A stretch of DNA of 64,000 bases. It comes from Candidatus Omnitrophota bacterium. GTDB lineage: Bacteria > Omnitrophota > Gorgyraeia > 1-14-0-20-64-10. The stretch covers positions 84,873 through 148,872 of the forward strand of contig JAHFFE010000001.1 in NCBI GenBank assembly GCA_023248155.1. The letters are read 5' to 3'. The position numbers and the translations under genes are program-made. Of the stretch, positions 17,634-63,838 are shown piece after piece; within the stretch, counting starts at the first letter, position 1; each line of letters opens with the position of its first letter. The notes under the pieces were generated by a model, which was given only the letters and a program-made list of their open reading frames with translations, ran no database searches and had not been told where the DNA came from.

Positions 17634-19943
17634 ATGAAGACAATACAAAAAAGATTTCGAATAATTATCGCGGCCGCGTTGGTGTTCTGTTTCGCAACAG
17701 AATGCCCAACCCCGTTTTTGTCGCACCACAGCTACGCTGCCGTAGAACAACAGACGCTCCGCCCCGGTCAAAACGCTGAAACAGCACCGGCAACTCTCAG
17801 TAACCGGCTGCAAACATTCGCCGGACAAGAAGAGCAGAAGAAAGCTTCCACGAGCTTTTTTAAATCAAAATGGTTTATAACAACGATGGTTTTAGTGGCG
17901 GGCCTAATCGCCACTCCGTTCCTTGCGCAACCCAATCGCAATAATAATATTCAACCGCCGCCAGCGATTGCTCAACAGCAACCTCCTCAGCAAATCGTTC
18001 GATATGAAACGGCAAGTTTTTTGACGGGATTTGAAATCGAACTGGATGCAGCCCAAAAAGAAGCTTTTCTCAAAGCGTTTCTTGAAAGCAATACGGAACA
18101 TGCGATCGCAAAAAACAGCATGATGCTTGAAATGGCGCGGTCGATGCCAAGCGCTATGAAACATCGCCCAGACGGGTCTCTTGTCGTCGTCTATATTCCG
18201 TCACAACCGCAACTTTATCTCTTAAATTCGCAGGGCCCTGTTTTTGTGCATCTCTATTTGAACCCAAGCTCGAAACGAGGGGTTCTTCATTTTGACGGAG
18301 CGCTGGGAACAAAAGAAGAATTTGCCGTGGCATTGCGGGAATTAAAGAATCCTTTTAAACGCTTATTGATGGAGCTTGTGGGAGCGCCCGAAGTTACTCC
18401 GGAAATGATCGAGTCAGTGGAGCAAAGCTGGAATCAGCAGGTTAGCGATGCTAAGAAAGCCCAAGAACGCTTTCCGAAATTCGAGCCTAATTTCGGAGTC
18501 CAACATTCCGAAATGCTGGACACATTGCCGCGCCGGACCACCTCGGTGGACACTTCCCAATTTGATGTTGCCTCTGCAACGGACGAAAGAACGAATCTGG
18601 AAACCGACGCTGTCCTGCAATGCATCGTTGTTACACTCTGGGACCCGGAGCATCAGGTGGGTGGGATGTCCCATTTTTGGTTTTTGAGGGATCCCGGCCC
18701 TGGAATGGGCCGTTTCCTTGCAAGGTTTCAGGAAAAAGGAGGCACGCTGGGACCACAAACTAAAATTCGGCTGCGCGGCGGCCGTCAGGGAGAGTCAGAA
18801 ACCCTCTTGAGTAGTTTGTTGGTTTTACTGGAGGGCAAAGGAACTATTGTTGAGCAGGATGTTTTAAAAGATGACGAGGCACCAGTTGTTCATATGCTGT
18901 TGGATGTGAAAACGGGTAACGTAGTCGATTTGATTGATGGTTTTGCAACGCTGGAAGATGCCGGAATTTTTGCCGATCGTTTGCAGGAATTAATGCAGCA
19001 GAGATTGGAAGCATTCTTAAAATTCCATGGAGACAAAACGGAGCGACTTTTAGCGGTTACAGCGGATCAACAATTAGAGTGGGCAAAAAAACGATACAAT
19101 ACATACATAATAACAAACCAGCAGGCACTCATTGAACTCAGACAGTTGTGGAGCTCTTTTTACATAAGAGATGTGGATCAGAAAATTCGCACAGCTAAAT
19201 CAAGCGAACTTGGCTGGGCCTCAAGCCCGTTTTCTTCGGCGTCTCATGAGTTGAGTTCGCATCGCGAATTAATCAGTCGCTTGTTCGGCAATCCGGTTAA
19301 TTTTGAAAAACTGGAAATAACATTTGAATTGCCGCCAGGAGAAGGGCAGGCCTACTGGGAATGGGTTCAAAGACAGGAGCAAGAGGTCCTTTATATTAGT
19401 CAACTGTTGTATATGTCGAGCTGGCAAGGGGTCATGCCCGATAGAATAAAAATTCCACGGATAGAGACAAACCCCGAATTTGGGATAGCAATTGCTCTAC
19501 AAACCGAACTGCGGCAAGGATATCTGGTTGTCGTGGATCTTGATTCTTTAACGGATGCTCAGTATCAACAGATCAAGTCGGCCAGGGCAACCATTCATCA
19601 GCGCTCAGAACGCCACAATATCCGCCTTCTTTTCCTGGGTCAGCCTCGAGAAAAGGCCGGCTTCAGAGATGATTTCCTGGAAAATGACACCATACGCGCA
19701 TTAGATGCCGACACACTCGCAACAGAGTTCGGCCGAATTCGTGGGTTGACCCGCGTCACCTTTTTCGGTTCCGAAAATGCAGCGTTGCCAATTCAAACAG
19801 CGGTGGAAAAATTAGGTGTGACCTTTGAGCAAAAAGAGTTTTCAGTTCTGAATCTGTTGAGAGGGTTTGGGGTTAACGCCATTATGCTGGATATTCTTGA
19901 AAACGGATTGGAAGAAGCCGCTTCCCTCGGTAAACAAGCGTAA
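17634..19943 (+). CDS. large secreted/membrane-anchored hypothetical protein with a central CheD-like (Cys/His deamidase-fold) domain
   Basis: 769 aa; N-terminal hydrophobic segments IIIAAALVFCFA and FITTMVLVAGLIATPFLA; Q/P-rich linker. Residues ~320-440 (LQCIVVTLWDPEHQVGGMSHFWFLRD...KIRLRGG...LLVLLEGKGTIVEQDVLKDDEAPVVHMLLDVKTGNVV) match CheD motifs. The C-terminal ~330 aa is unrecognised. Confidence 0.6.
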   Translation: MKTIQKRFRIIIAAALVFCFATECPTPFLSHHSYAAVEQQTLRPGQNAETAPATLSNRLQTFAGQEEQKKASTSFFKSKWFITTMVLVAGLIATPFLAQPNRNNNIQPPPAIAQQQPPQQIVRYETASFLTGFEIELDAAQKEAFLKAFLESNTEHAIAKNSMMLEMARSMPSAMKHRPDGSLVVVYIPSQPQLYLLNSQGPVFVHLYLNPSSKRGVLHFDGALGTKEEFAVALRELKNPFKRLLMELVGAPEVTPEMIESVEQSWNQQVSDAKKAQERFPKFEPNFGVQHSEMLDTLPRRTTSVDTSQFDVASATDERTNLETDAVLQCIVVTLWDPEHQVGGMSHFWFLRDPGPGMGRFLARFQEKGGTLGPQTKIRLRGGRQGESETLLSSLLVLLEGKGTIVEQDVLKDDEAPVVHMLLDVKTGNVVDLIDGFATLEDAGIFADRLQELMQQRLEAFLKFHGDKTERLLAVTADQQLEWAKKRYNTYIITNQQALIELRQLWSSFYIRDVDQKIRTAKSSELGWASSPFSSASHELSSHRELISRLFGNPVNFEKLEITFELPPGEGQAYWEWVQRQEQEVLYISQLLYMSSWQGVMPDRIKIPRIETNPEFGIAIALQTELRQGYLVVVDLDSLTDAQYQQIKSARATIHQRSERHNIRLLFLGQPREKAGFRDDFLENDTIRALDADTLATEFGRIRGLTRVTFFGSENAALPIQTAVEKLGVTFEQKEFSVLNLLRGFGVNAIMLDILENGLEEAASLGKQA

Positions 19944-26286: not shown

Positions 26287-26290
26287 TTTG

Positions 26291-26935
26291 ATGAAAAACA
26301 AGATTCAGATTATTCTGATCGCCGTGCTCGTTGCGGCCGGTATTTGGTTTTTCTACACGAAGAAAACAACTCAGCCCGCCGCGGTTCCTGCCGCCGGTAC
26401 GGTCTCGCCGGCTTCCGTGACTGTTCTCAAGCCGGGCGAAAATCCGCCGGCAGCCCCGAAATCGAAACAACCGCCGGCTCCGCTGCGAATCCGTTTTGAA
26501 GCCAATGAACCGCCGGTACTTGGGAAACCGGCGCCGGTTGTTTTTTCGGTTTATCCGAATCCGGCAGTCTGGCCGAAGAATGCACAGGGCGAAGGACGGA
26601 TTGAATGGCTGCTGCGGATTCCTTCCGGCATCAAGCTGGAATCAAAGGAGTGGGAACCGGCAGCGCTTTCCGCGCAGGATAAAAATGAAGGATGGTCTTT
26701 GTACCAGTATGCTGAGAAAGTAACGATTCCGTCGGAGCCGGGCACCGAACCGCTCTCACAGCAAAAAGCGTTGTTGATTATCGCGGAACCGGGCGTCAAT
26801 TGGGTGATCACGGTCCGGGTGCGGATGGCGCATGGATCTGAATCGTGGCAGGCGTTTGGCGCGGTTTTCGCAACGGCCGACAGCCAAAAAGCTGAATTTC
26901 ATACAGCGCCAAAACTTTCAAATCAAAATGCCTAA
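26291..26935 (+). CDS. hypothetical membrane-anchored protein with a Pro-rich linker, inserted between carA and carB
   Basis: N-terminal [20 protein letters not shown], a P/A-rich stretch, then a ~130-aa domain of unknown function; 8-nt overlap with carB. Confidence 0.5.
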
Positions 26936-29900: not shown

Positions 29901-30212
29901 GTTTCCGTCGATGAAATCAATAAAATTCACGAAGGCCGCCCCGATGTTCTGGACCTGGTGCGTGACTCTAAAATTAACCTGATCATCAATACGCCGGCCG
30001 GCAAGGAAACGAAGGAAGATGAAACAAAAATCCGATCACTGGCCGTTGTCCGCGGAATTCCGTGCGTCACTACCATTCCGGGCGCGCAAGCGTTGGTGAC
30101 CGGTATTGAAGCGCTGCGTAAGGGATATGAAGTTCGCTCCATTCAGGAATGGCACCTGACGATTGCCGGCAATAAGACGCCGGTACGTCCGGTAGCCGGA
30201 AGCGTAAAATGA
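26928..30212 (+). CDS. carB: carbamoyl-phosphate synthase large subunit
   Basis: [30 protein letters not shown] with duplicated ATP-grasp halves and an MGS-like C-domain. The ORF-track start at 26832 is an upstream alternative codon. Confidence 0.95.
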
Positions 30213-31036
30213 TTCAGGCAACGGTCCCCGTTGTTTTCAATAAGCGGATCGCCAAAGATCATTATTTACTTCGCTTAAAGAGTTCGACCGTCGCCAAAAA
30301 ATCAAAACCGGGACAATTTGTTCATCTGCTGTGCGTCGAGAAACCAGGCATGGCCCCGTTGTTGCGCCGGCCGATCAGTATTTTTGACGCCGATCCAAAA
30401 ACTGGAACAATCGATCTGATCTATAAAGTGATGGGCGAAGGGACCGAGGTTTTGTCCAAAGTACGGTCGGGCGCGGCGCTGGATCTGTTGGGGCCGCTTG
30501 GTTCGACATTTCAAATACCGGCCTCCGTCCAAACCGTTTATTTGGTCGGAGGCGGTGTCGGCATTCCGCCGCTTTATTTTCTGGCCAAAGAATTAAAAAA
30601 GAACCACCGCGTAAGAACAGAAGTTTTTTTGGGCGCACGCACCAAGGAATGGGTGATTTGCGCTTCCGATTTTAAAAAACTGGGCGTTTCCGTTCATACG
30701 GCGACCGACGACGGCAGTCTGGGTCATCGCGGTTCCGTGGTGGATCTTCTGGTCTCTGTCATTACGCGTGAAACAAAGCAAGCCCGTCTCAAAGAAAAAT
30801 TAATTTGTATTTGCGGTCCGACCCGCATGATGCAGGCCGCTGCCGCGGCCTCCGGCCGGTTCGGTATCCCGGCGCAGGTTTCGCTTGAAGAACGGATGGG
30901 CTGTGCGATGGGCGTTTGCATGGGCTGCGTCGTTGAGGTCAACAGCGCGCCGGCCGGTTCGCATGCGCGGTTTCAGCGCGTTTGCACGGAAGGACCTGTT
31001 TTCCCATCGGAGGAAATCGTATGGAATATTCATTAG
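30209..31036 (+). CDS. pyrK: dihydroorotate dehydrogenase electron-transfer subunit
   Basis: FAD/NAD-binding domain plus C-terminal 2Fe-2S cysteines CGPTRMM...[13 protein letters not shown]. Confidence 0.85.
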
Positions 31037-31878
31037 TCCGGGTGTTTCGGTCTATTCCGGAATGGGTTCGTGGAAAACAACGAATCGCGCGGTGGATTTT
31101 GAAAAATCACTGTGACGCAAAAGACATAGTTGTGCAGGATAATAGAGGATTTTATTACCAAATTCCAAGCTTGAGAGAAACAATAAGTTTTTCATTGTGG
31201 GTGGATGGCTCATACGAACCGAAATTAATGAAAACCATCGAGAGGATGCTTGATCCCGGCGATTGTTTTGTCGATATCGGGGCGAACATTGGCACCTTTA
31301 CGATTCCAGCATCTCGGTGGGTGGGGTCTAATGGAGTAGTGGTAGCGGCAGAAGCTTCACCAAGCGTTCTTCCATATCTTCGTGAGAATGTTGCCCGAAA
31401 TATGGTATCAAATGCACGAATTATTCCTGTTGCTGTGGCCGGCCAATCGCTGGAAAAAATCGATTTTTATGAAGCACCCAAAGACAAATTTGGCATGGGA
31501 TCTCTTTCCCCCCAATTTTCGGCGCAGGCAGTTTCGGTTTTAGCAAAAACACTGGACCAAATTATAAAAGAAGAGGGAATCTCGCACGTTCATTTGATCA
31601 AAATAGATGTGGAAGGTCTTGAGGCGGAAGTTTTCCGTGGAGCAAAAAATATTTTATCGCAAAATCCATCCCCCATTATTTTCTTTGAGTTTTGTGATTG
31701 GGCCGAGGCGAGAGTTTCGAGCTTGAAGGTTGGGGAGGCCCAGAGTATATTGCTCGATTCGGGATACCAGATCTGGCTGCTGGATGATTTCATCAGAAAA
31801 AAGCCTCCACTGAGCCAGCCGTTGATCAAGGGGTTTGAAACGCTTGTTGCAATCCGGGATCCCAAAAATGAAAACTGA
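31021..31878 (+). CDS. FkbM-family SAM-dependent methyltransferase inserted between pyrK and pyrD (AT-richer than neighbours by eye)
   Basis: FVDIGANIGTFTIPA...AAEASP...KIDVEGLEAEVFRGAK matches FkbM motifs. Start MEYSLVR at 31021. Confidence 0.8.
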   Translation: MEYSLVRVFRSIPEWVRGKQRIARWILKNHCDAKDIVVQDNRGFYYQIPSLRETISFSLWVDGSYEPKLMKTIERMLDPGDCFVDIGANIGTFTIPASRWVGSNGVVVAAEASPSVLPYLRENVARNMVSNARIIPVAVAGQSLEKIDFYEAPKDKFGMGSLSPQFSAQAVSVLAKTLDQIIKEEGISHVHLIKIDVEGLEAEVFRGAKNILSQNPSPIIFFEFCDWAEARVSSLKVGEAQSILLDSGYQIWLLDDFIRKKPPLSQPLIKGFETLVAIRDPKNEN

Positions 31879-32836
31879 AATTTTCATCGGAAAATTAAAA
31901 CTGCAAAACCCCGTGATGGTTGCCTCCGGAACCTTCGGTTACGGCGAAGAGTACAACCGTTTGTATCCGGTGGACCGGCTCGGCGCGATCGTCACGAAAT
32001 CGATCAGCTTGAAACCGCGCTCGGGCAATCCGGCGCCGCGCATTTATGAAACGGCGTCGGGAATGCTCAATGCCATCGGCCTTCAGAATGTTGGCGCCGA
32101 TGCGTTCCTGAAAGAAAAAACACCTTTTTTGAATTCGCTGAAAAAAGCGAAAGTGATCGTCAACCTCGCCGGAGAATCGATTGAGGAATATGTGGAGCTG
32201 GCCCGGCGAATGGAGCGTGTATCCGCGGTGGACGGCATTGAGTTGAATATTTCCTGCCCCAATTGCGAGCGCGGCGGAATTGAATTTGGCGTTGATCCCG
32301 CTTTGACGGCGCAAGTGGTGGGCCGCGTGCGCAAAGTGACGCGCAAGCCGCTGATCGTGAAATTGTCTCCGAATGTCACCCAGATTGTCACAATCGCGCG
32401 CGCCGCCGTGGATGTGGGCGCCGACGCGCTGTCTCTGATTAATACGGTGTTGGCGACGGCAGTCGATATCCGGACCTGGAAACCGCGGATTGCCACGGTG
32501 ACCGGCGGGTTAAGCGGACCAGCCGTCAAACCGATCGCGCTGCGAATGGTGCTTCAGGTACACCGCGCGCTGCCTAAAGTTCCGCTGATCGGTATCGGCG
32601 GCGTTACCACCTGGGAAGATGCGGCGGAATTTCTGTTGTGCGGCGCCAGCGCCGTTCAGGTCGGAACCGCCAACTATGTGAATCCCAAAGCGCCGCTGCA
32701 AATCATCGATGGACTCAGCCGGTATTTGCAGGAAAAGAAATTAAAATCTCCGGCAGAATTGGTCGGAAAACTTCAGTTGCCCGGACAATGGCGCGGCGTT
32801 CCGCAGGTAATTTCCGGTGAGAGGAGAAAAAAATGA
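31868..32836 (+). CDS. pyrD: dihydroorotate dehydrogenase (class 1B catalytic subunit)
   Basis: MKTEIFIGKLKLQNPVMVASGTFGYGEEY...; TIM-barrel DHODH. Confidence 0.9.
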   Translation: MKTEIFIGKLKLQNPVMVASGTFGYGEEYNRLYPVDRLGAIVTKSISLKPRSGNPAPRIYETASGMLNAIGLQNVGADAFLKEKTPFLNSLKKAKVIVNLAGESIEEYVELARRMERVSAVDGIELNISCPNCERGGIEFGVDPALTAQVVGRVRKVTRKPLIVKLSPNVTQIVTIARAAVDVGADALSLINTVLATAVDIRTWKPRIATVTGGLSGPAVKPIALRMVLQVHRALPKVPLIGIGGVTTWEDAAEFLLCGASAVQVGTANYVNPKAPLQIIDGLSRYLQEKKLKSPAELVGKLQLPGQWRGVPQVISGERRKK

Positions 32837-40438: not shown

Positions 40439-41260
40439 ATGTTTTTAATGCGCCCACTAGAAAAACAGCTTCTTTCCCTGCGACATCACCCAGCCCTCAA
40501 AAAAACAGACTGGATTTGGAACTGTCTCCGTCCTTGCTATGATGCCGTGCTTGCGTTGGTTGCTTTTAAAGGGATGGAACGAGTGATGAATGGAACGGAC
40601 AAGATATTCCTTCATCCTCAATCCAGACATACTCTGGAAACATACGAACCGAATGTTTGGAAACATGTCATGGGAGAGATTCGCAGCGGAGATGTTGTTG
40701 TGGATGTGGGCGCAAATATTGGATTGTATACGATTGCTCTCGCAAAGAGGGTTGGCCCAGAAGGCACAGTGATCGCCTTTGAGCCGGACTCTGACAATTT
40801 CCACGCTTTAAGAAAAAACGTAAAACTTAATCAGATCGAACATCAAGTTCAGCTCATAAGAGCGGCTGTGGGCGACTTCCCAGGAGAAGTTTCCTTATCA
40901 AAAGCACAGATGGAATCCCATGTTTTGTCTGATGCAGCCCAAGGAAGCGAAAGAGTTCCGATGGTAACTCTAGACGATGTTTGTAAGCAAAAGATAGACA
41001 TTCTCAAGATTGACATCGAAGGCTATGAAGAAAAAGCTCTTCTCGGTGCGAGCCGTCTTTTAGAAGATTCCGAAAGATCTCCGCGCTGTATCTATCTCGA
41101 AGTTCATCCATTTGCATGGCCAAGCGTTGGCACAACCTCGGAATCGTTGCTTACTTTGCTCGAAAAATTGGGATATCAAGCGGAATATATCGATGGGGGA
41201 ATTGTTCATCGGATTGATTACTGGGGAGAGATCATTGCCCGAAAAAACGATAAGAATTAA
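40439..41260 (+). CDS. FkbM-family methyltransferase
   Basis: VVDVGANIGLYTIALA...FEPDSDNF...KIDIEGYEEKAL. Confidence 0.8.
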   Translation: MFLMRPLEKQLLSLRHHPALKKTDWIWNCLRPCYDAVLALVAFKGMERVMNGTDKIFLHPQSRHTLETYEPNVWKHVMGEIRSGDVVVDVGANIGLYTIALAKRVGPEGTVIAFEPDSDNFHALRKNVKLNQIEHQVQLIRAAVGDFPGEVSLSKAQMESHVLSDAAQGSERVPMVTLDDVCKQKIDILKIDIEGYEEKALLGASRLLEDSERSPRCIYLEVHPFAWPSVGTTSESLLTLLEKLGYQAEYIDGGIVHRIDYWGEIIARKNDKN

Positions 41261-50375: not shown

Positions 50376-51611
50376 CTAGTTTGGAGCCGCTGTTGCAGTC
50401 ATCGTCGTAAACAGATCGTGGTATTGCTGGATCACCTTTTTCCGATCGAATCCAAAAGCGGCGTTCCGCGCATTTTCTCCCATGGTTTTGCACAGTTCCC
50501 TGTGATCGTACAGAAACCGGATCTTTTCGGCAATATCTACGGCATTGCCTGGAGCCGCCTGCAGACCGCACCGGAACTGGAGCGCGATTCGAGACGTTTC
50601 TGAAGTCGCATCAATGGCGGCGATGTAAGGACGACCGGCCGCTAAAACGCCATACAATTTGCTGGGGGTAATATAACCGGAAACCCCTTTTTTCAGAGAG
50701 ACGATGCAGCAATCCGCTGCGCCATAGACCCCCAAAAGAGCTTCTTTGGTTTGATAGGGGAAAAAGCGGACGTGGGATAAATCCAGGGTGCGCGCACGGT
50801 TTTGCAGCGCCTCTTTCCGAACTCCGTCTCCAACAAAAGCAAATATAAAATCCGGCAGACCTTTTAAAAGAGCCGCCGATTCCAGCAATTGCTCCAGATC
50901 TTGCGAAGCGCCAAAATTTCCTGCATACAGTGCTACGAATTTATCAGCCAGGCCATGTTGCTCCGAGAATGGATTTCTTTTGGAAACGGGATAGGTTTTC
51001 TCAGTATCCGCCCAATTGGTGATGATGGAGATCAATTCTGCGCGCGCATTTTTTTCGTGGATCAGCCGGTTTCGCATGTCGTCATCCAGCGCTAGAATCC
51101 GGTCGGCCGACCGGATTAAAAACCGGTTTACCTGGTCGAGAATTTTTTCAATCAACGGGTTGCTGAAATTTTCAAGCAACCGGCTGACTTCAGGAAAAAT
51201 ATCACTGTAGGCCATGATAAACCGGCACTGGGACTGCCGGGCCGTCCATAAAGCAGCCAGACCAATGATGGGTGGATCGGTCATTGATAACACGAGATCC
51301 GGTTTTTTTACACGTCTTGACGCAATAAAAGAAGAGGCGAAGTAAGTCAGGTAATTGCAGATGCGGCCGGCGAGTATTTTTTTTGAAAAAGAAGTTCCGG
51401 CACAGCGAAAAACGGTTACGCCACGAATAGAAACGGGATTTCCCACCCAGGAAGGCTGATTTTCGCAAGCGGTGGATTTAGGAGCAACGCCGCAAATGAT
51501 CGAGACACGGCAGCCGTGGTCATGCACGAGTCCTTCCGCCAATTCCGTTAACAGCTGGCCTGTTGCGCTTTGTTCGGGATAATAGGCTCGGTTAAAAAGC
51601 AGAAGATGCAT
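50376..51611 (-). CDS. glycosyltransferase family 4 (WcaI-like)
   Basis: MHLLLFNRAYYPEQSATGQLLTELAEGL...; the ORF-track start at 51722 is an upstream TTG extension. Confidence 0.8.
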   Translation of the reverse strand: MHLLLFNRAYYPEQSATGQLLTELAEGLVHDHGCRVSIICGVAPKSTACENQPSWVGNPVSIRGVTVFRCAGTSFSKKILAGRICNYLTYFASSFIASRRVKKPDLVLSMTDPPIIGLAALWTARQSQCRFIMAYSDIFPEVSRLLENFSNPLIEKILDQVNRFLIRSADRILALDDDMRNRLIHEKNARAELISIITNWADTEKTYPVSKRNPFSEQHGLADKFVALYAGNFGASQDLEQLLESAALLKGLPDFIFAFVGDGVRKEALQNRARTLDLSHVRFFPYQTKEALLGVYGAADCCIVSLKKGVSGYITPSKLYGVLAAGRPYIAAIDATSETSRIALQFRCGLQAAPGNAVDIAEKIRFLYDHRELCKTMGENARNAAFGFDRKKVIQQYHDLFTTMTATAAPN

Positions 51612-52932
51612 TTTTAAGTTTCTTTTTTTGCCGGCTGAACAGATATCGGTTAAAATAATAGCCAACCAGAGCACCAGACACAGCGCTGGCTGTAACTTCC
51701 ACCATGGAAAGCAGTGCATCAATCATGCTAAAGCCTGGAAGATACCAGTATAGAAATCCTTTCCAGTCTCCTTTGACGAGGCAGTTTCCAGCTAAAGTAT
51801 CAACAACGCAAACCAGAGTGCTCATCACCAACATGCCACAAAAAACACCGATACTCCCAAAATTAACATAAAATTCAAGCACCTGGCCGATTCCAACGCT
51901 GGTGCCCTCCGAGAATTCAATGCCGGTGTAATCGGCAACTAGATTGCCGCTACCTGCAAAAATATTTTTATCAGGCCAAAGCACGCGCGGAATCAGTGAT
52001 AAAACAGAGTCCCAGAGGGTGGCGCCATGCGCAAAAGGCTGAAGGCCATTACCCATATAATCAATGGCGGCTCCCAGCAAAAGACATTGATTCATGCGCT
52101 CATCGAGCCGATAGAGATGTATTTCATTGTTACTGTCCAACCATTCGAAATTAGTAATCATTCCAGAGATTTCTTCAAGCCGAACGGAAGTAGCTTCTTC
52201 TGCTCGAACTCGTTCACGAAGTAATTCGCGATCTCTCATGTAGGTCACATAAAACGAAAGACCCGCATAAATAATGACCATTCCCAACGCGATCATTTTC
52301 CAGCGGGGTTTCAAAAAATTAGCAATAAAAGAGAAGATTGAAAGAGCAATCATAGCCCCATAACTTAAAAACCCCTGCTGGATCATTGTAAGTAAAGGAA
52401 TTCCAATAAAAGAAAATAAACTGTAAATAAAGAATTGTCCGGAGTTTCTTGTTTGCCATGCTTTCCACAAACAAAGGCATAATCCGGCCACCAGAAATCG
52501 CCACATTGAGGAAGAAAGAGCGGCTCCGGACGGGATTTTACTGGCAATGGGGATAATGAAGAAAAAACTAAATAATCCGAATAACACATAAACAAGGGGT
52601 AATCCCAGCGTAAAAGCATCCGATGGCATTTTGGGTTTATCTACTTGTAATGAGTGTATTAGAAATGGACCAACAAAAACAGAACCGATTCCAAACCCGA
52701 TGATGCCATAGGTCGCCATTTCAAATCCGAGGTCGTTGAAATATTGCTCCCCCAGAGAGTACCACTCATGCTGGTAGATCCATCCGCCGATGCCGTAAAG
52801 AGACCATAGCTGTAATAAATAAGCCAATACAAGACCAGCGCTGGGAGATTTCATTCGCCAGCGGCTAACGACAACTACCAAGCTTACGAAGAGCCAGGCC
52901 CACCAGCAAAATTCAAACGAAAGCGCTTTCAT
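51592..52932 (-). CDS. polytopic membrane protein, putative O-antigen/EPS polymerase (Wzy-like) or ligase-like
   Basis: 446 aa; ~7 N-terminal TM, a ~200-aa loop domain, then further TM. Located between glycosyltransferases. Confidence 0.45.
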   Translation of the reverse strand: MKALSFEFCWWAWLFVSLVVVVSRWRMKSPSAGLVLAYLLQLWSLYGIGGWIYQHEWYSLGEQYFNDLGFEMATYGIIGFGIGSVFVGPFLIHSLQVDKPKMPSDAFTLGLPLVYVLFGLFSFFFIIPIASKIPSGAALSSSMWRFLVAGLCLCLWKAWQTRNSGQFFIYSLFSFIGIPLLTMIQQGFLSYGAMIALSIFSFIANFLKPRWKMIALGMVIIYAGLSFYVTYMRDRELLRERVRAEEATSVRLEEISGMITNFEWLDSNNEIHLYRLDERMNQCLLLGAAIDYMGNGLQPFAHGATLWDSVLSLIPRVLWPDKNIFAGSGNLVADYTGIEFSEGTSVGIGQVLEFYVNFGSIGVFCGMLVMSTLVCVVDTLAGNCLVKGDWKGFLYWYLPGFSMIDALLSMVEVTASAVSGALVGYYFNRYLFSRQKKKLKNASSAF

Positions 52933-61253: not shown

Positions 61254-62378
61254 CTAGAATAGTCTCCGTTTCACATACAGTGTGTCTCTCGGGTGAATCG
61301 CGATGTTGGAATCCCGACCTGTTAGAATCCGGTCGATATTCGCCCGAAGGATCACTTTTTTATCGCCGACCGAACGGATAACCTCAATTCGGCTCGAACC
61401 GAATTTTGTGATGCCGCCAGCCATGCTGATAGCGGTCAAAAGATCAAGCGGCCCCTCAATGGGATAACTGCCCGGCGCGCTGATTTCGCCCAGCGCCGTG
61501 AATTTCGCGCCAATAATCTGTACCAAGACCTGACGGTTGTCCTGTGTGGGGGTTCGAATATACAGCGTGTCGCGGGGCAGAATCGGCAGGTTCGGTTCCT
61601 TGCCGTTTAAAATATTGTCGATATTCGAGCGAATCACCACCTGCTTGTTGCCCTGCCGGCGGATAATCTCCACCTGGCTGTTGCGCAGGGTCTGAACATC
61701 ACCGGCTTTGCTGATGGCCGTCAGTAGATCGATGGAACCGGTCATCTCGTAAAAACCAGACTCGCCTTTTTGGCCTAAAATAGAGAATTGCGCCCTGGAG
61801 AAACGGACCGTCACCTGGGGGTTGATCAGAAAATCTTTATCCAGCCGTTCCCGGAGTTCCTGTTCAACGGCTGAGATTGTTTTTCCCGCCGCCTGGACTA
61901 TTCCAATGAGTGGAAAACTAAAAGAGCCGTCTTCCTGAAGCTGGACTTTTTGGGTTAAGTCATCGTTTTTATAAACCGTGATATCGAGTTGATCTCCCGG
62001 GACCAGCTGATAAGAATATGCCAGTGCTCCCGCCGGTGAGATGATCTCGCTGGGAATATTTTGAGAGCCTCCTTGAGCCGCGCTTGTTTTAGAGGCCGAT
62101 AGCTGTTCGGAGATGGCCAGTTCCAGTTCCCGAGTCGAGAGCCCGGCTGCCTGGATCGTTCCAATCGGCGGGAAGAAAACCAGGCCATCTTCCTGGACAA
62201 TGGTTTTTATTCCCGAGCCGGGATTGGAAAAAAGACCAATCCCCAATTCATCCCCAGGCTGCAGACGATAGGGCTGCTGCGCCGGAGAATTTTTTTCAGC
62301 TGCTGTTGCGCAGCCGGTTTGCGCGACTAAAGCCGCGATCAGAAAAAAAGAAAAAAAGATTTTCACACAGCGCCGCAT
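61254..62378 (-). CDS. wza: polysaccharide export outer-membrane/periplasmic protein (Wza family)
   Basis: Lipoprotein-like signal (…LVAQTGC); PGD-x-L motifs YRLQPGDELGI / YQLVPGDQLDI; two SLBB-like repeats ending ...PRDTLYIRTP / ...PRDTLYVKRR. Confidence 0.8.
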   Translation of the reverse strand: MRRCVKIFFSFFLIAALVAQTGCATAAEKNSPAQQPYRLQPGDELGIGLFSNPGSGIKTIVQEDGLVFFPPIGTIQAAGLSTRELELAISEQLSASKTSAAQGGSQNIPSEIISPAGALAYSYQLVPGDQLDITVYKNDDLTQKVQLQEDGSFSFPLIGIVQAAGKTISAVEQELRERLDKDFLINPQVTVRFSRAQFSILGQKGESGFYEMTGSIDLLTAISKAGDVQTLRNSQVEIIRRQGNKQVVIRSNIDNILNGKEPNLPILPRDTLYIRTPTQDNRQVLVQIIGAKFTALGEISAPGSYPIEGPLDLLTAISMAGGITKFGSSRIEVIRSVGDKKVILRANIDRILTGRDSNIAIHPRDTLYVKRRLF

Positions 62379-63838
62379 CAGAAGCTGCCCTCAATGTTGA
62401 AATAAATCTGGTGATCCGAATAGTCGCGCGTGCGCGACCGCCGGTAAGTATAGTTCAGCAAAACACGCAGCTGTTCCTGCACTTGAAACGCAAGGCCCGG
62501 CTTGACGGAATAGAGTGTTTGCAGGGTTCTTTCAGTTGACCCTGGAACTACATCCGAACGGCTTGAGCGTTGCCAGGTATAATTGCCATTCAACGATAAA
62601 TCCAGCCGCGGCGTTAGCTGGTAAACAAGGCTCATCGTGGGCGATCGGCTGCGAAACCGGGTCCGGCCGGTCGAAAACGAAGTGGTCCGCGCATCCAGAT
62701 AGGACACCAGCATCCTGGTTCTCCGGTTGAGTTCTCGTTCCCACTGGGCCCGAAAATTCGGATCGGTGGACCGCTTGCTGCCTCGGACTCTATTGCGATC
62801 CAAAGAAAAAGTGGCGGAAAGTGTTTCAAACCGCGTCACTTCGTGCCGCACTCCCAAACGGCCTCCGTATTGATCGGAATTTTTGCTTTCATTGCCGGGA
62901 ATCTCGATCTCTTGGTAGGAAATTCCGCTCACCAGAAGCCAGGTGGGAACCAGGTCCCGCTCCCAGTCGAGCGTGGAGTCCCAGGTGTTCCGGTCGGTGT
63001 CGGAATCATTAACGATATGGTCATCAAATTTCCGATAGATGGAATTGAGCGCCAGTTTATTGCTTCGGTTAAGCGCATGACTGACTCTTCCCGAGAATGT
63101 TTGCGCGCTGGTTTGCGACAGCTTCGGGTTTTGGCGCAGCACATCAATCTCTTCGTCCCCAAATACAAACGAATGGTCTATGACGACCGTATAGCCCATC
63201 CGATACTGCGTAGGCCCCCCTGGATCAAGATCAATAAAAGTGACCAGGTCATGGTTGACGGCATTGGCGTTGCGCCGCATGTACCGGAACGCGTTGACTT
63301 CATACTGAAAACCATACAACAGCGGCCCTCGGGGATCGGCGAACAGAACCACATTTTCCAGCGTGCCTTTGAAGTCGCTTTGGCGCTGATTATCCTGAAG
63401 ATCAACGTTGGAGTCATAGAGAAATTCGGCCCCGTATCCGATCCGCGTCCTCTTGGCGAAAAACTCAAAAAACGAATCGCTTGATTGGTCGGAATGCGCA
63501 TAGACTTTATCGCGGCTGAGCCGGTCGGCCAACTGGTCGGAGGGGGTTGAAAAAAGCGATTTCCGCTCAAAAGAACTTCGGGAGGCGAACATCGGGGCCG
63601 GTGCCGAATAAGCCGTAGGCGCTTCTTGAGCCGTAGTTTCAGGTTGAAAAATTGTTGGTGTAAACTGGGCAGCCGGCTTGGCTGGCGCGGTCTCCTCTGA
63701 AGCAGGAGTGCTGGTCGTTTCTTCTGAACTGGACGAAGAAGCCGACTCCTCCGCCGCGGCAACCCGGGAGGCGCCGGCGCAGAAAAACAAACCTATCAGA
63801 AATAAGAAAACTGTCTTCGCTAGAAGTTTCTCCACCAT
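62378..63838 (-). CDS. outer-membrane beta-barrel protein (signal peptide, Ser/Thr-rich linker, C-terminal ...GSF)
   Basis: Signal peptide MVEKLLAKTVFLFLIGLFFCAGASRVAA; low-complexity SSSSSEETTSTPASEETAP; alternating amphipathic strands; terminal aromatic F. Confidence 0.5.
   Translation of the reverse strand: MVEKLLAKTVFLFLIGLFFCAGASRVAAAEESASSSSSEETTSTPASEETAPAKPAAQFTPTIFQPETTAQEAPTAYSAPAPMFASRSSFERKSLFSTPSDQLADRLSRDKVYAHSDQSSDSFFEFFAKRTRIGYGAEFLYDSNVDLQDNQRQSDFKGTLENVVLFADPRGPLLYGFQYEVNAFRYMRRNANAVNHDLVTFIDLDPGGPTQYRMGYTVVIDHSFVFGDEEIDVLRQNPKLSQTSAQTFSGRVSHALNRSNKLALNSIYRKFDDHIVNDSDTDRNTWDSTLDWERDLVPTWLLVSGISYQEIEIPGNESKNSDQYGGRLGVRHEVTRFETLSATFSLDRNRVRGSKRSTDPNFRAQWERELNRRTRMLVSYLDARTTSFSTGRTRFRSRSPTMSLVYQLTPRLDLSLNGNYTWQRSSRSDVVPGSTERTLQTLYSVKPGLAFQVQEQLRVLLNYTYRRSRTRDYSDHQIYFNIEGSF

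What the first reader, a model, noticed from the sequence alone, without database searches (positions are those of the whole stretch)
17634..19943. CheD-fold (Cys/His deamidase) domain embedded in a 769-aa secreted/membrane protein with no chemotaxis genes nearby
Residues ~320-440 reproduce the CheD signature almost position for position: C-[IV]-x-V-x-L-[YW]-D-x4-V-G-G-M-[AS]-H-x2-L-x-D, then K-I-x-x-x-G-G and ...L...G..IV..D....D....V...L.V.TG.V. Canonical CheD is a ~160-aa cytosolic receptor glutamine deamidase encoded in che operons. Here the domain sits inside a protein with an N-terminal signal/TM region, a Q/P-rich linker and ~330 unrecognised C-terminal residues. The gene lies between gyrA/tRNA-Glu and rsmI, next to the origin. 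The CheD fold is shared with CNF1-type deamidase toxins, so this could be an extracellular protein-glutamine deamidase (effector or surface-modifying enzyme) rather than a chemotaxis component.
Basis: partly seen in the sequence, partly recalled or inferred. Interest (0 to 1): 0.75.

Follow-up and report, generated by a model that had tools for sequence, protein, structure and literature searches.

The report
Orphan CheD/NTAN1-like amidase membrane protein
This gene encodes a rare 769-residue membrane-associated protein whose core is a probably active cysteine amidase related to the chemotaxis enzyme CheD and the eukaryotic enzyme NTAN1, but it is not a chemotaxis gene and its substrate and cellular side are unknown.

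Summary

The protein fails the family tests for CheD, NTAN1 and the XopAK effectors. It belongs to an uncharacterised bacterial clade lying between them. No che genes occur in the window or beside four relatives. The closest relative occupies the same position upstream of rsmI-lpxA.

Architecture: two N-terminal hydrophobic segments, a Q/P/N-rich linker, a family-specific accessory module, the amidase domain, an orphan region, and a rare Rossmann-like C-terminal module.

Export is not established, because the evidence points both ways. The most likely function is deamidation of a protein or peptide Gln/Asn. This is a new variant of a known enzyme kind, of moderate interest.

The parts
17634..19943 (+). 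Whole ORF, 769 aa from the ATG at 17634. NCBI and ENA call a 685-aa product starting at Met85 (17886).
   Evidence: No ATG, GTG or TTG occurs between codons 36 and 84. Relatives P0003 and P0004 have the same double-hydrophobic N-terminus, which favours the long form.
17655..17720 (+). Hydrophobic segment 1 (aa 8-29, FRIIIAAALVFCFATECPTPFL), preceded by MKTIQKR. It is signal-peptide-like or a first transmembrane helix.
   Evidence: Kyte-Doolittle scan. No canonical AxA cleavage site lies close to the hydrophobic core (sequence reading, inference).
17820..17834 (+). AGQEE, the target's version of the A-G-[LM]-E-[EDGQS] motif that recurs in relatives.
   Evidence: The motif occurs 3 times in P0003, 4 times in P0008 (one copy is SGLEE) and 3 times in the L002 giant ORF. 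In the window it otherwise occurs only once, by chance, in yidC.
17871..17930 (+). Hydrophobic segment 2 (aa 80-99, WFITTMVLVAGLIATPFLAQ), preceded by KK...K.K. It is a membrane anchor or export signal. The equivalent segment in P0003 and P0004 carries a Tat-like RRxF[LI] motif.
17931..18008 (+). Q/P/N-rich linker (aa 100-125, PNRNNNIQPPPAIAQQQPPQQIVRYE).
18009..18518 (+). Family-specific accessory module N-terminal to the catalytic domain (aa 126-295). It ends in the conserved 'P-x-V-T-x-E-M' helix.
   Evidence: Homologous to P0003 aa 476-650 and P0004 aa 120-295. It aligns with the upstream ~140 aa of about 10 long-form relatives. It has no Pfam or PDB match.
18519..18968 (+). CheD/NTAN1-fold cysteine amidohydrolase domain (aa 296-445).
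18603..18605 (+). Thr324 (ACC), the predicted third triad residue. It lies 6 residues before the Cys, as Thr21 does in CheD and Ser69 in NTAN1.
   Evidence: Thr or Ser occupies this column in 17 of 19 relatives (read from the alignment).
18621..18623 (+). Cys330 (TGC), the predicted nucleophile. It is the only Cys in aa 101-769.
   Evidence: Invariant in 19 of 19. It aligns with CheD Cys27 and NTAN1 Cys75. Composition.
18672..18674 (+). His347 (CAT), the predicted general base, 17 residues after the Cys as in CheD (C27/H44) and NTAN1 (C75/H92).
   Evidence: Invariant in 19 of 19..
18969..19517 (+). Orphan middle region (aa 446-628) with no detectable relative.
19518..19940 (+). C-terminal alpha/beta module (aa 629-769) ending in the conserved tail ...GLE-x-A-x-x-LG-x-[QE]-A-COOH.

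Best explanation
The gene encodes a membrane-associated, multi-domain protein. Its core (aa 296-445) is a catalytically competent cysteine amidohydrolase of the CNF1/YfiH-like superfamily, in the branch that holds CheD and NTAN1.

By analogy with the characterised members, Cys330 is activated by His347, which is oriented by Thr324. Cys330 attacks a side-chain carboxamide to form a thio-acyl intermediate. Ammonia is released and water resolves the intermediate, so Gln or Asn becomes Glu or Asp on a protein or peptide substrate.

The family-specific accessory module (aa 126-295) and the C-terminal alpha/beta module (aa 629-769) probably supply substrate selection or regulation. The two N-terminal hydrophobic segments tether the protein to the inner membrane.

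The protein belongs to a rare, uncharacterised bacterial clade that is not part of chemotaxis. In the target's lineage the gene keeps a conserved chromosomal position upstream of rsmI-lpxA.

Shown: homology, fold, conservation of the triad, domain architecture, and absence of che neighbours. Inferred: enzymatic activity, type of substrate, roles of the flanking modules, and membrane topology (I lean slightly toward an extracytoplasmic catalytic domain, about 55:45).
For: - Exhaustive HMMER search found 23 relatives. P0003 matches at E=9e-49 and P0004 at E=8e-32.
- In the domain alignment, Cys330, His347 and Gly382 are invariant, and G343, G383, S388 and G428 are nearly invariant.
- The family profile matches CheD 2f9z at E=6.3e-13, NTAN1 at E=4e-5 and a PgeF-like protein at E=0.014. 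hhalign against CheD gives 98.1%.
- The published triads are CheD C27/H44/T21 and NTAN1 C75/H92/S69, and C75A and H92A abolish NTAN1 activity (PMC7022378). The target has the identical -6/0/+17 spacing.
- No che genes occur in the 64-kb window or beside P0003, P0004, P0005 and P0019.
- P0003 lies directly upstream of rsmI-lpxA, like the target.
- The membrane segments are shown. Signal-like N-termini occur in 11 of 19 relatives.
Against: - No biochemical data exist for any member of this clade.
- The target on its own matches no curated family above threshold.
Triad competence therefore rests on alignment and fold.
- CheD's receptor- and CheC-binding role is reported to matter more for chemotaxis than its enzymatic activity (PMC3513319). 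A binding or scaffold role with little catalysis is therefore possible.
- The superfamily also contains enzymes that do not act on proteins (YfiH/PgeF, YlmD).
- The topology evidence is contradictory (see the interpretation verdict).
Confidence: 0.6

Rival explanations
1. It is a fused or extended chemotaxis CheD. It deamidates or demethylates MCP receptors and is simply encoded away from the che operon.
Against: - Scores are 13-22 bits against CheD cut-offs above 220, and Pfam CheD gives no hit.
- The protein is 769 aa with membrane segments, against about 160 aa and cytosolic for CheD.
- No che or MCP genes occur in the window or next to four relatives.
- Relatives score better on NTAN1 than on CheD in Pfam.
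Confidence: 0.04
2. It is a bacterial N-terminal asparagine (or glutamine) amidohydrolase of NTAN1 type. It converts N-terminal Asn/Gln to Asp/Glu and so feeds a ClpS/ClpAP N-degron pathway.
Against: - Pfam matches cover only profile positions ~6-115 of 270.
- NTAN1's appended C-terminal region (Ser254, Thr255, Glu260), which binds the substrate alpha-amino group, has no counterpart. Thr73/Thr74 before the Cys are Leu328/Gln329 here (PMC7022378; sequence).
- Many relatives carry signal peptides.
- The target itself gives no PF14736 hit.
Confidence: 0.1
3. It is a secreted toxin or effector deamidase that modifies proteins of another cell, in the manner of CNF1, BLF1 or XopAK/HopK1-C.
For: The fold is shared with BLF1 and CNF1. 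The NCBIfam XopAK type III effector model hits 6 of 19 relatives (best E=3.6e-7) and the target weakly (E=0.007). XopAK is a virulence effector with a predicted catalytic domain (PMC11116571). Signal-like N-termini occur in 11 of 19 relatives.
Against: - The gene sits in a conserved, origin-proximal housekeeping position that is syntenic with P0003.
- There is no neighbouring secretion-system, immunity or mobile-element gene.
- A second hydrophobic segment suggests a membrane anchor, not release from the cell.
- GC content is only mildly below the window mean (47.4% vs 51.5%).
- The XopAK score of 15.9 bits is far below the cut-off of 150.
Confidence: 0.1
4. It is an envelope amidase acting on something other than a protein side chain. 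Candidates are amidated peptidoglycan stem peptides (iso-Gln, amidated mDAP), UDP-MurNAc-peptide editing as in YfiH/PgeF, or a lipid A/LPS intermediate.
Against: The domain is much closer to the protein deamidases CheD and NTAN1 than to YfiH. Adjacency to lpxA may be plain synteny with no functional link, since rsmI lies between them. Nothing identifies a sugar- or nucleotide-binding site.
Confidence: 0.12
5. It is a pseudoenzyme or scaffold. The CheD-like domain binds a partner helix, as CheD binds CheC and receptors, with no relevant catalysis.
For: For CheD, binding is reported to matter more than deamidation in chemotaxis (PMC3513319). The large non-catalytic flanks suggest interaction modules.
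Against: Cys and His are invariant across 19 highly divergent relatives (mean column identity 34%, about 22-46% identity to the target) and Thr/Ser is kept in 17 of 19. That is the expected signature of selection on catalysis.
Confidence: 0.05

Closest known systems
CheD, chemoreceptor glutamine deamidase / glutamate methylesterase (Pfam PF03975; PDB 2f9z)
   Different: - It fails every CheD family threshold.
- It is embedded in a 769-aa protein with membrane segments.
- It has a family-specific G-x-S-E motif after the GG turn, where CheD has its Gly-rich A-S-M-F loop.
- It has no che, MCP or cheC neighbours.
NTAN1, eukaryotic protein N-terminal asparagine amidohydrolase (Pfam PF14736; PDB 6a0e)
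   Different: - It lacks NTAN1's appended C-terminal region, which recognises the substrate N-terminus.
- It lacks the Thr-Thr that precedes the Cys in NTAN1.
- The third triad residue is Thr (CheD-like), not Ser.
- It is bacterial, membrane-associated and multi-domain.
XopAK / HopK1 C-terminus / RipBQ type III effectors (NCBIfam NF041406)
   Same: Weak sequence relationship to the same domain: 6 of 19 relatives match (best E=3.6e-7) and the target matches at E=0.007 over aa 6-94 of the domain. These effectors have a predicted, untested catalytic domain (PMC11116571).
   Different: The target scores 15.9 bits against a cut-off of 150. It has no type III secretion context. It sits in a conserved housekeeping locus and carries hydrophobic membrane segments instead of a T3SS signal.
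CNF1/CNFy and BLF1 glutamine-deamidase toxins
   Different: The structural relationship is only distant and no sequence similarity is detectable. The target has no translocation or receptor-binding toxin domains.
YfiH/PgeF and YlmD (Pfam Cu-oxidase_4 / DUF152)
   Different: More distant than CheD and NTAN1. Those enzymes are larger (~240-270 aa) and act on UDP-MurNAc-peptides or nucleosides.

Membership tests
CheD (chemoreceptor glutamine deamidase) | Scores above the curated family thresholds (Pfam PF03975 GA 25 bits; NCBIfam CheD equivalogs 223-369 bits) | tested here: not met
   No Pfam hit. NCBIfam scores are 13-22 bits and cover only the ~25-30 residues around Cys-His.
CheD (chemoreceptor glutamine deamidase) | CheD fold with a Cys-His-Thr triad (T. 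maritima C27/H44/T21) | tested here: met
CheD (chemoreceptor glutamine deamidase) | Small (~160 aa) soluble single-domain protein | tested here: not met
   769 aa, two hydrophobic segments, at least four further regions.
CheD (chemoreceptor glutamine deamidase) | Encoded with chemotaxis genes (cheA/W/Y/C, MCPs) | tested here: not met
   None among the ORFs of the 64-kb window or beside relatives. The rest of the genome could not be examined.
CheD (chemoreceptor glutamine deamidase) | Deamidates MCP Gln residues and binds CheC | not testable with these tools
   Requires biochemistry.
NTAN1 / N_Asn_amidohyd (PF14736) | Scores above the Pfam gathering threshold (24 bits) | tested here: not met
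   The target gives no hit. Some relatives pass (P0006 39.5 bits, P0014 27.5 bits) and 14 of 19 hit at E<1.
NTAN1 / N_Asn_amidohyd (PF14736) | Appended C-terminal region (Ser254, Thr255, Glu260) and Thr73/Thr74, which bind the substrate's free N-terminus and the Asn side chain | tested here: not met
   Matches in relatives stop at profile position ~115 of 270. The residues before the Cys are Leu328/Gln329. Requirement taken from PMC7022378. A structural equivalent supplied by the flanking modules cannot be excluded.
NTAN1 / N_Asn_amidohyd (PF14736) | Cys-His-Ser triad on the alpha-beta-beta sandwich | tested here: met
XopAK family type III effector (NF041406) | Scores above the NCBIfam cut-off (150 bits) | tested here: not met
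   15.9 bits, E=0.0069.
CNF1/YfiH-like cysteine hydrolase superfamily (fold level) | Alpha-beta-beta sandwich with a conserved Cys/His pair | tested here: met
   All significant structural matches are members: CheD, NTAN1, YfiH, YlmD, BLF1, CNF1, CNFy. Cys and His are invariant.
Tat-exported protein | Twin-arginine motif [ST]-R-R-x-F-L-K before a moderately hydrophobic h-region | tested here: not met
   The target has F-K-S-K-W-F-I (no RR) before aa 80-99. Relatives P0003 (N-R-R-E-F-L-Q) and P0004 (S-R-R-N-F-I-R) have the motif at the equivalent internal position.
HAD-like phosphatase (for the C-terminal module) | Conserved DxDx[TV] on strand 1 plus motifs II-IV | tested here: not met

The most novel reading that the evidence does not exclude
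The CheD-like domain and the recurrent A-G-[LM]-E-[EQ] motif form an enzyme-substrate pair. The motif is found in the linkers and conserved C-terminal tails of the same small set of lineage-specific proteins, and it varies between E-Q and E-E exactly as MCP modification sites do. On this reading the protein is a membrane-tethered deamidase (possibly also a methylesterase) that modifies Gln/Glu pairs in its own tail or in partner proteins. That would be a receptor-modification-type switch operating outside chemotaxis.
Probability: 0.06. Interest if true: 0.75.

Novelty: new variant of a known kind. Interest (0 to 1): 0.45.

Why it matters
CheD and NTAN1 are each known in a single biological role: adaptation in chemotaxis, and the eukaryotic Arg/N-degron pathway. 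This protein and its roughly 20-30 detectable relatives show a third, uncharacterised bacterial branch with an intact catalytic triad. That branch is unlinked to chemotaxis, often carries export signals, and connects in sequence space to both NTAN1 and the XopAK/HopK1-C plant-pathogen effectors.

Characterising one member would do three things:
- It would give a biochemical handle on the predicted but untested catalytic domain of XopAK and HopK1.
- It would inform the bacterial ancestry of NTAN1.
- It would show whether bacteria use protein deamidation in the envelope or at the membrane as a housekeeping modification.

The finding is a useful lead and not a surprise. The fold is already known to be reused in toxins and effectors.

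Tried and rejected
1. Internal duplication. I tested whether the accessory module (aa 126-295) is a degenerate copy of the amidase domain. A jackhmmer run seeded with it converged on the catalytic domain. The target's segment VFVHLYLNPSSKRGVLHFDG scores 7.2 bits (E=3e-4; 0 of 1000 shuffles reach it) against a family HMM built without the target-type rows. The equivalent regions of P0003 and P0004 score no better than shuffles. Two profile-profile comparisons give probability below 0.2%. I rejected this as unsupported, with a residual possibility.

2. HAD phosphatase for the C-terminal module. Rejected.

3. Alternative start codons that would turn the internal Tat-like motif into an N-terminal signal. 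No in-frame start exists in the target or in P0004.

4. Word-indexed homology searches with the whole protein, with the domain profile and with the C-terminal profile. These returned almost nothing new.

5. Genome and metagenome locus scans. They found only a Planctomycetia fragment (L002), a canonical CheD (L003) and the P0004 contig. The first attempt, with the 19-sequence alignment, failed for lack of a conserved stretch.

6. PADLOC defence models: no hit.

7. Rfam: only tRNAs.

8. Promoter and terminator scan: uninformative.

9. Organism identification. Only metagenome assemblies (ENA ERZ27276474, ERZ27280021) carry the sequence, so taxonomy stays unresolved.

10. Literature searches for bacterial non-chemotaxis CheD/NTAN1-like proteins found no description.

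11. Homology between the target's middle region and the TIM-barrel-like region of P0003 and L002: none.
Full report
**Observation**

The window contains an ATG-to-TAA ORF at 17634-19943 (+) of 769 aa, exactly as reported. It lies after dnaA, dnaN, gyrB, gyrA and tRNA-Glu(ttc). It lies before rsmI, lpxA, pyrR, pyrB, pyrC, lolA, carA and carB.

I scanned the window's ORFs of at least 150 aa against Pfam. They are origin-proximal housekeeping genes, the pyrimidine operon, and a large LPS/polysaccharide cluster. No chemotaxis family appears.

The conserved pair is Cys330/His347, not ~335/~352.

**Is the CheD resemblance real?**

On its own the protein is nearly invisible to curated models.
- Pfam gives no CheD hit.
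- Three NCBIfam CheD models touch only aa 327-349, at 13-19 bits against cut-offs above 220.
- phmmer against PDB sequences finds nothing.
- The word-indexed search of 5.8 billion proteins finds only the protein itself, annotated from Met85 as 685 aa.

The exhaustive HMMER search of 1.84 billion cluster representatives found 23 relatives. They define two modules. One spans aa ~126-440: P0003 at E=9e-49, P0004 at E=8e-32, and many proteins of about 180-450 aa that match aa ~300-440. The other spans aa ~652-769.

A 19-sequence alignment of the first module's core has Cys330, His347 and Gly382 invariant. Results with that alignment:
- Its profile matches T. maritima CheD (2f9z) at E=6.3e-13 over profile positions 14-134 and chain residues 12-144. 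It matches human NTAN1 at E=4e-5 and a PgeF-like protein at E=0.014.
- hhalign against CheD gives 98.1% probability.
- AlphaFold2 with the alignment gives pLDDT 92.5 and pTM 0.87.
- Foldseek ranks NTAN1 and CheD first, at E about 3e-7 and TM 0.71-0.76.

A canonical 182-aa CheD lying beside cheY-like and cheA genes was fetched by chance as L003. It shares 40% identity with the target over the 50 residues around Cys-His.

The phrase 'position for position' holds literally only for the Cys-His segment. For the rest of the domain the match is at profile and structure level.

**Catalytic residues**

The NTAN1 structure paper gives the triads CheD C27/H44/T21 and NTAN1 C75/H92/S69. It shows that C75A and H92A abolish activity (PMC7022378). 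In both enzymes the His lies 17 residues after the Cys and the Ser/Thr lies 6 residues before it.

The target has T324/C330/H347 at the same spacing. Thr or Ser occupies the -6 column in 17 of 19 relatives. Cys330 is the only cysteine in aa 101-769.

I could not measure side-chain distances because model coordinates are not exposed.

**What it is not**

It fails the thresholds of CheD, of NTAN1 (PF14736) and of the XopAK effector family.

Among its relatives, 14 of 19 hit PF14736 and 7 of 19 hit PF03975. In NCBIfam, 13 of 19 hit a CheD model and 6 of 19 hit 'XopAK family type III secretion system effector', best E=3.6e-7.

The PF14736 matches stop at profile position ~115 of 270. The NTAN1-specific C-terminal region that recognises the free N-terminus is therefore absent. 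The Thr-Thr that precedes the NTAN1 Cys is Leu-Gln here.

XopAK, HopK1-C and RipBQ are plant-pathogen effectors with a predicted but untested catalytic domain (PMC11116571; PMC11211514).

[quoted passage not shown] It lies between CheD, NTAN1 and XopAK. I found no paper describing it.

**Architecture of the target**

| Region | Residues | What it is | Evidence |
|---|---|---|---|
| Hydrophobic segment 1 | aa 8-29 | Follows MKTIQKR | |
| Loop | aa 30-79 | Contains AGQEE | |
| Hydrophobic segment 2 | aa 80-99 | Preceded by four Lys | |
| Linker | aa 100-125 | Q/P/N-rich | |
| Accessory module | aa 126-295 | Homologous to P0003 and P0004; alignable to the ~140 aa upstream of the catalytic domain in about 10 'long-form' relatives; ends in P-x-V-T-x-E-M | |
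| Amidase domain | aa 296-445 | CheD/NTAN1 fold | see above |
| Middle region | aa 446-628 | No detectable relative | |
| C-terminal module | aa 629-769 | Shared with P0007, P0008, P0009, P0015, P0036 and weakly with P0003 | |

**Context and distribution**

The target-type subfamily is very rare. It comprises the target, P0003, P0004, and a fragment at the edge of a Planctomycetia MAG contig. That fragment begins a multi-domain ORF of more than 1700 aa.

P0003 lies directly upstream of rsmI and lpxA, as the target does. A toxin-antitoxin pair is inserted between P0003 and rsmI. The locus is therefore inherited within a lineage and was not recently acquired.

P0004 lies among pseudopilin (N_methyl) genes. 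P0005 and P0019 lie among unrelated housekeeping and hypothetical genes. No neighbour recurs, and none of these loci contains a che gene.

**Localisation**

For export:
- Eleven of 19 relatives have an N-terminal hydrophobic, signal-like segment directly before the domain.
- In P0003 and P0004, the segment equivalent to the target's aa 80-99 is preceded by a textbook Tat motif (NRREFLQ and SRRNFIR).
- No in-frame start codon exists that would make that motif N-terminal.

Against export:
- The target lacks the twin arginines.
- Two hydrophobic segments with a strongly positive N-terminus predict an N-in/C-in hairpin.
- The C-terminal module occurs in proteins without any hydrophobic segment (P0007, P0009, P0015).

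I therefore call the protein membrane-associated and leave the side unresolved.

**Mechanism and rivals**

The best-supported reading is a Cys-His-Thr amidohydrolase that deamidates Gln or Asn on a protein or peptide. The flanking modules would provide specificity and the N-terminus would provide membrane tethering (confidence about 0.6).

| Rival | Confidence |
|---|---|
| A displaced chemotaxis CheD | 0.04 |
| A bacterial N-terminal amidase | 0.10 |
| A secreted effector or toxin | 0.10 |
| An envelope amidase acting on peptidoglycan, UDP-MurNAc-peptide or LPS | 0.12 |
| A non-catalytic scaffold | 0.05 |

**Unexplained**

The pentapeptide A-G-[LM]-E-[EDGQS] recurs far above chance in exactly this set of proteins. 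It occurs 3 times in P0003, 4 times in P0008 (one copy is SGLEE) and 3 times in the Planctomycetia giant ORF, and it forms the conserved C-terminal tail of the C-module proteins. It is not enriched elsewhere in the loci.

The motif superficially resembles the [AS]-x-x-[EQ]-[EQ] half of the MCP modification consensus. That consensus comes from my own recollection and was not verified in the papers I read. The fifth position varies between Q and E. This motivates the low-probability 'enzyme-substrate pair' reading.

**Verdict**

This is a new variant of a known enzyme kind, in a rare architecture, of moderate interest.

Noticed in passing
window 17820-17834 and 19899-19940; P0003, P0008, P0009, P0015; L002 1382-3930; L004; L008: A short motif, A-G-[LM]-E-[EDGQS], recurs 3-4 times per protein in the target's relatives, both in inter-domain linkers and in the conserved extreme C-terminal tail (...GLE.A..LG.[QE]A-COOH). 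It is essentially absent from the rest of those loci. It could be a processing, recognition or modification site.
   Followed up: partly
window 17655-17930; P0003 aa 22-120; P0004 aa 4-100 (L005 5812-6110): These proteins have an unusual N-terminal arrangement. A signal-peptide-like segment comes first, then a 50-70 aa loop, then a second hydrophobic segment. In the two closest relatives that second segment carries an internal twin-arginine (Tat) consensus, and no alternative start codon exists upstream of it. It may represent dual targeting or a hairpin anchor.
   Followed up: partly
L002 17-5122 (Planctomycetia MAG CAZKNC010000098.1): An ORF of more than 1700 aa begins, at the contig edge, with the same amidase domain. 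It continues through a region shared with the N-terminal part of P0003 (GPGLYLW...WLTYWASWW...MVNSWQG, possibly glycoside-hydrolase-like) and several unrecognised domains separated by AGMEE linkers. It has no Pfam hits at all.
   Followed up: partly
L008 8001-8978 (GCA_964373805.1, CAYJWF010000004.1): P0008 carries the same C-terminal module as the target, plus four copies of the motif (three AGLE, one SGLEE) and a helix-turn-helix-looking segment (judged by eye only). It is encoded between mcsA/mcsB and clpC.
   Followed up: no
L004 4667-5304: In the syntenic locus of P0003, a small ORF plus a PIN-domain gene (a toxin-antitoxin-like pair) is inserted between the amidase gene and rsmI. An AAA_14/DUF4143 ATPase gene lies upstream in place of gyrA/tRNA-Glu.
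   Followed up: no
window 30982-31878 and 40439-41260: There are two FkbM-family methyltransferase genes. One is wedged inside the pyrimidine operon between the pyrK-like gene (30209-31036) and pyrD (31835-32836), and its ORF overlaps both neighbours.
   Followed up: no
window 26288-26935, 51592-52932, 62378-63838: Three sizeable ORFs (215, 446 and 486 aa) have no Pfam match. The first lies between carA and carB and overlaps the predicted carB start by about 100 nt, which suggests that the carB start is miscalled or that a small unknown gene lies there.
   Followed up: no
window 34155-63838: A cluster of about 30 kb holds LPS/exopolysaccharide genes: UbiA-type prenyltransferase, epimerases, a heptosyltransferase, many GT4 glycosyltransferases, an ABC-2 exporter, asparagine synthase, a carbamoyltransferase, a Wzz/tyrosine-kinase-like protein, Poly_export, and a sugar transferase. 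It is interrupted by tRNA-Phe, tRNA-Asp and tRNA-Val.
   Followed up: no
window 18198-18260 (aa ~189-209): The segment GPVFVHLYLNPSSKRGVLHFDG in the accessory module resembles the catalytic core GPC-V-I-V-T-L-Y-D-P-x-T-K-x-G-x-L-x-H-F-D of the family, with Val in place of the Cys (7.2 bits, 0 of 1000 shuffles). Profile-profile tests do not support a domain duplication.
   Followed up: yes
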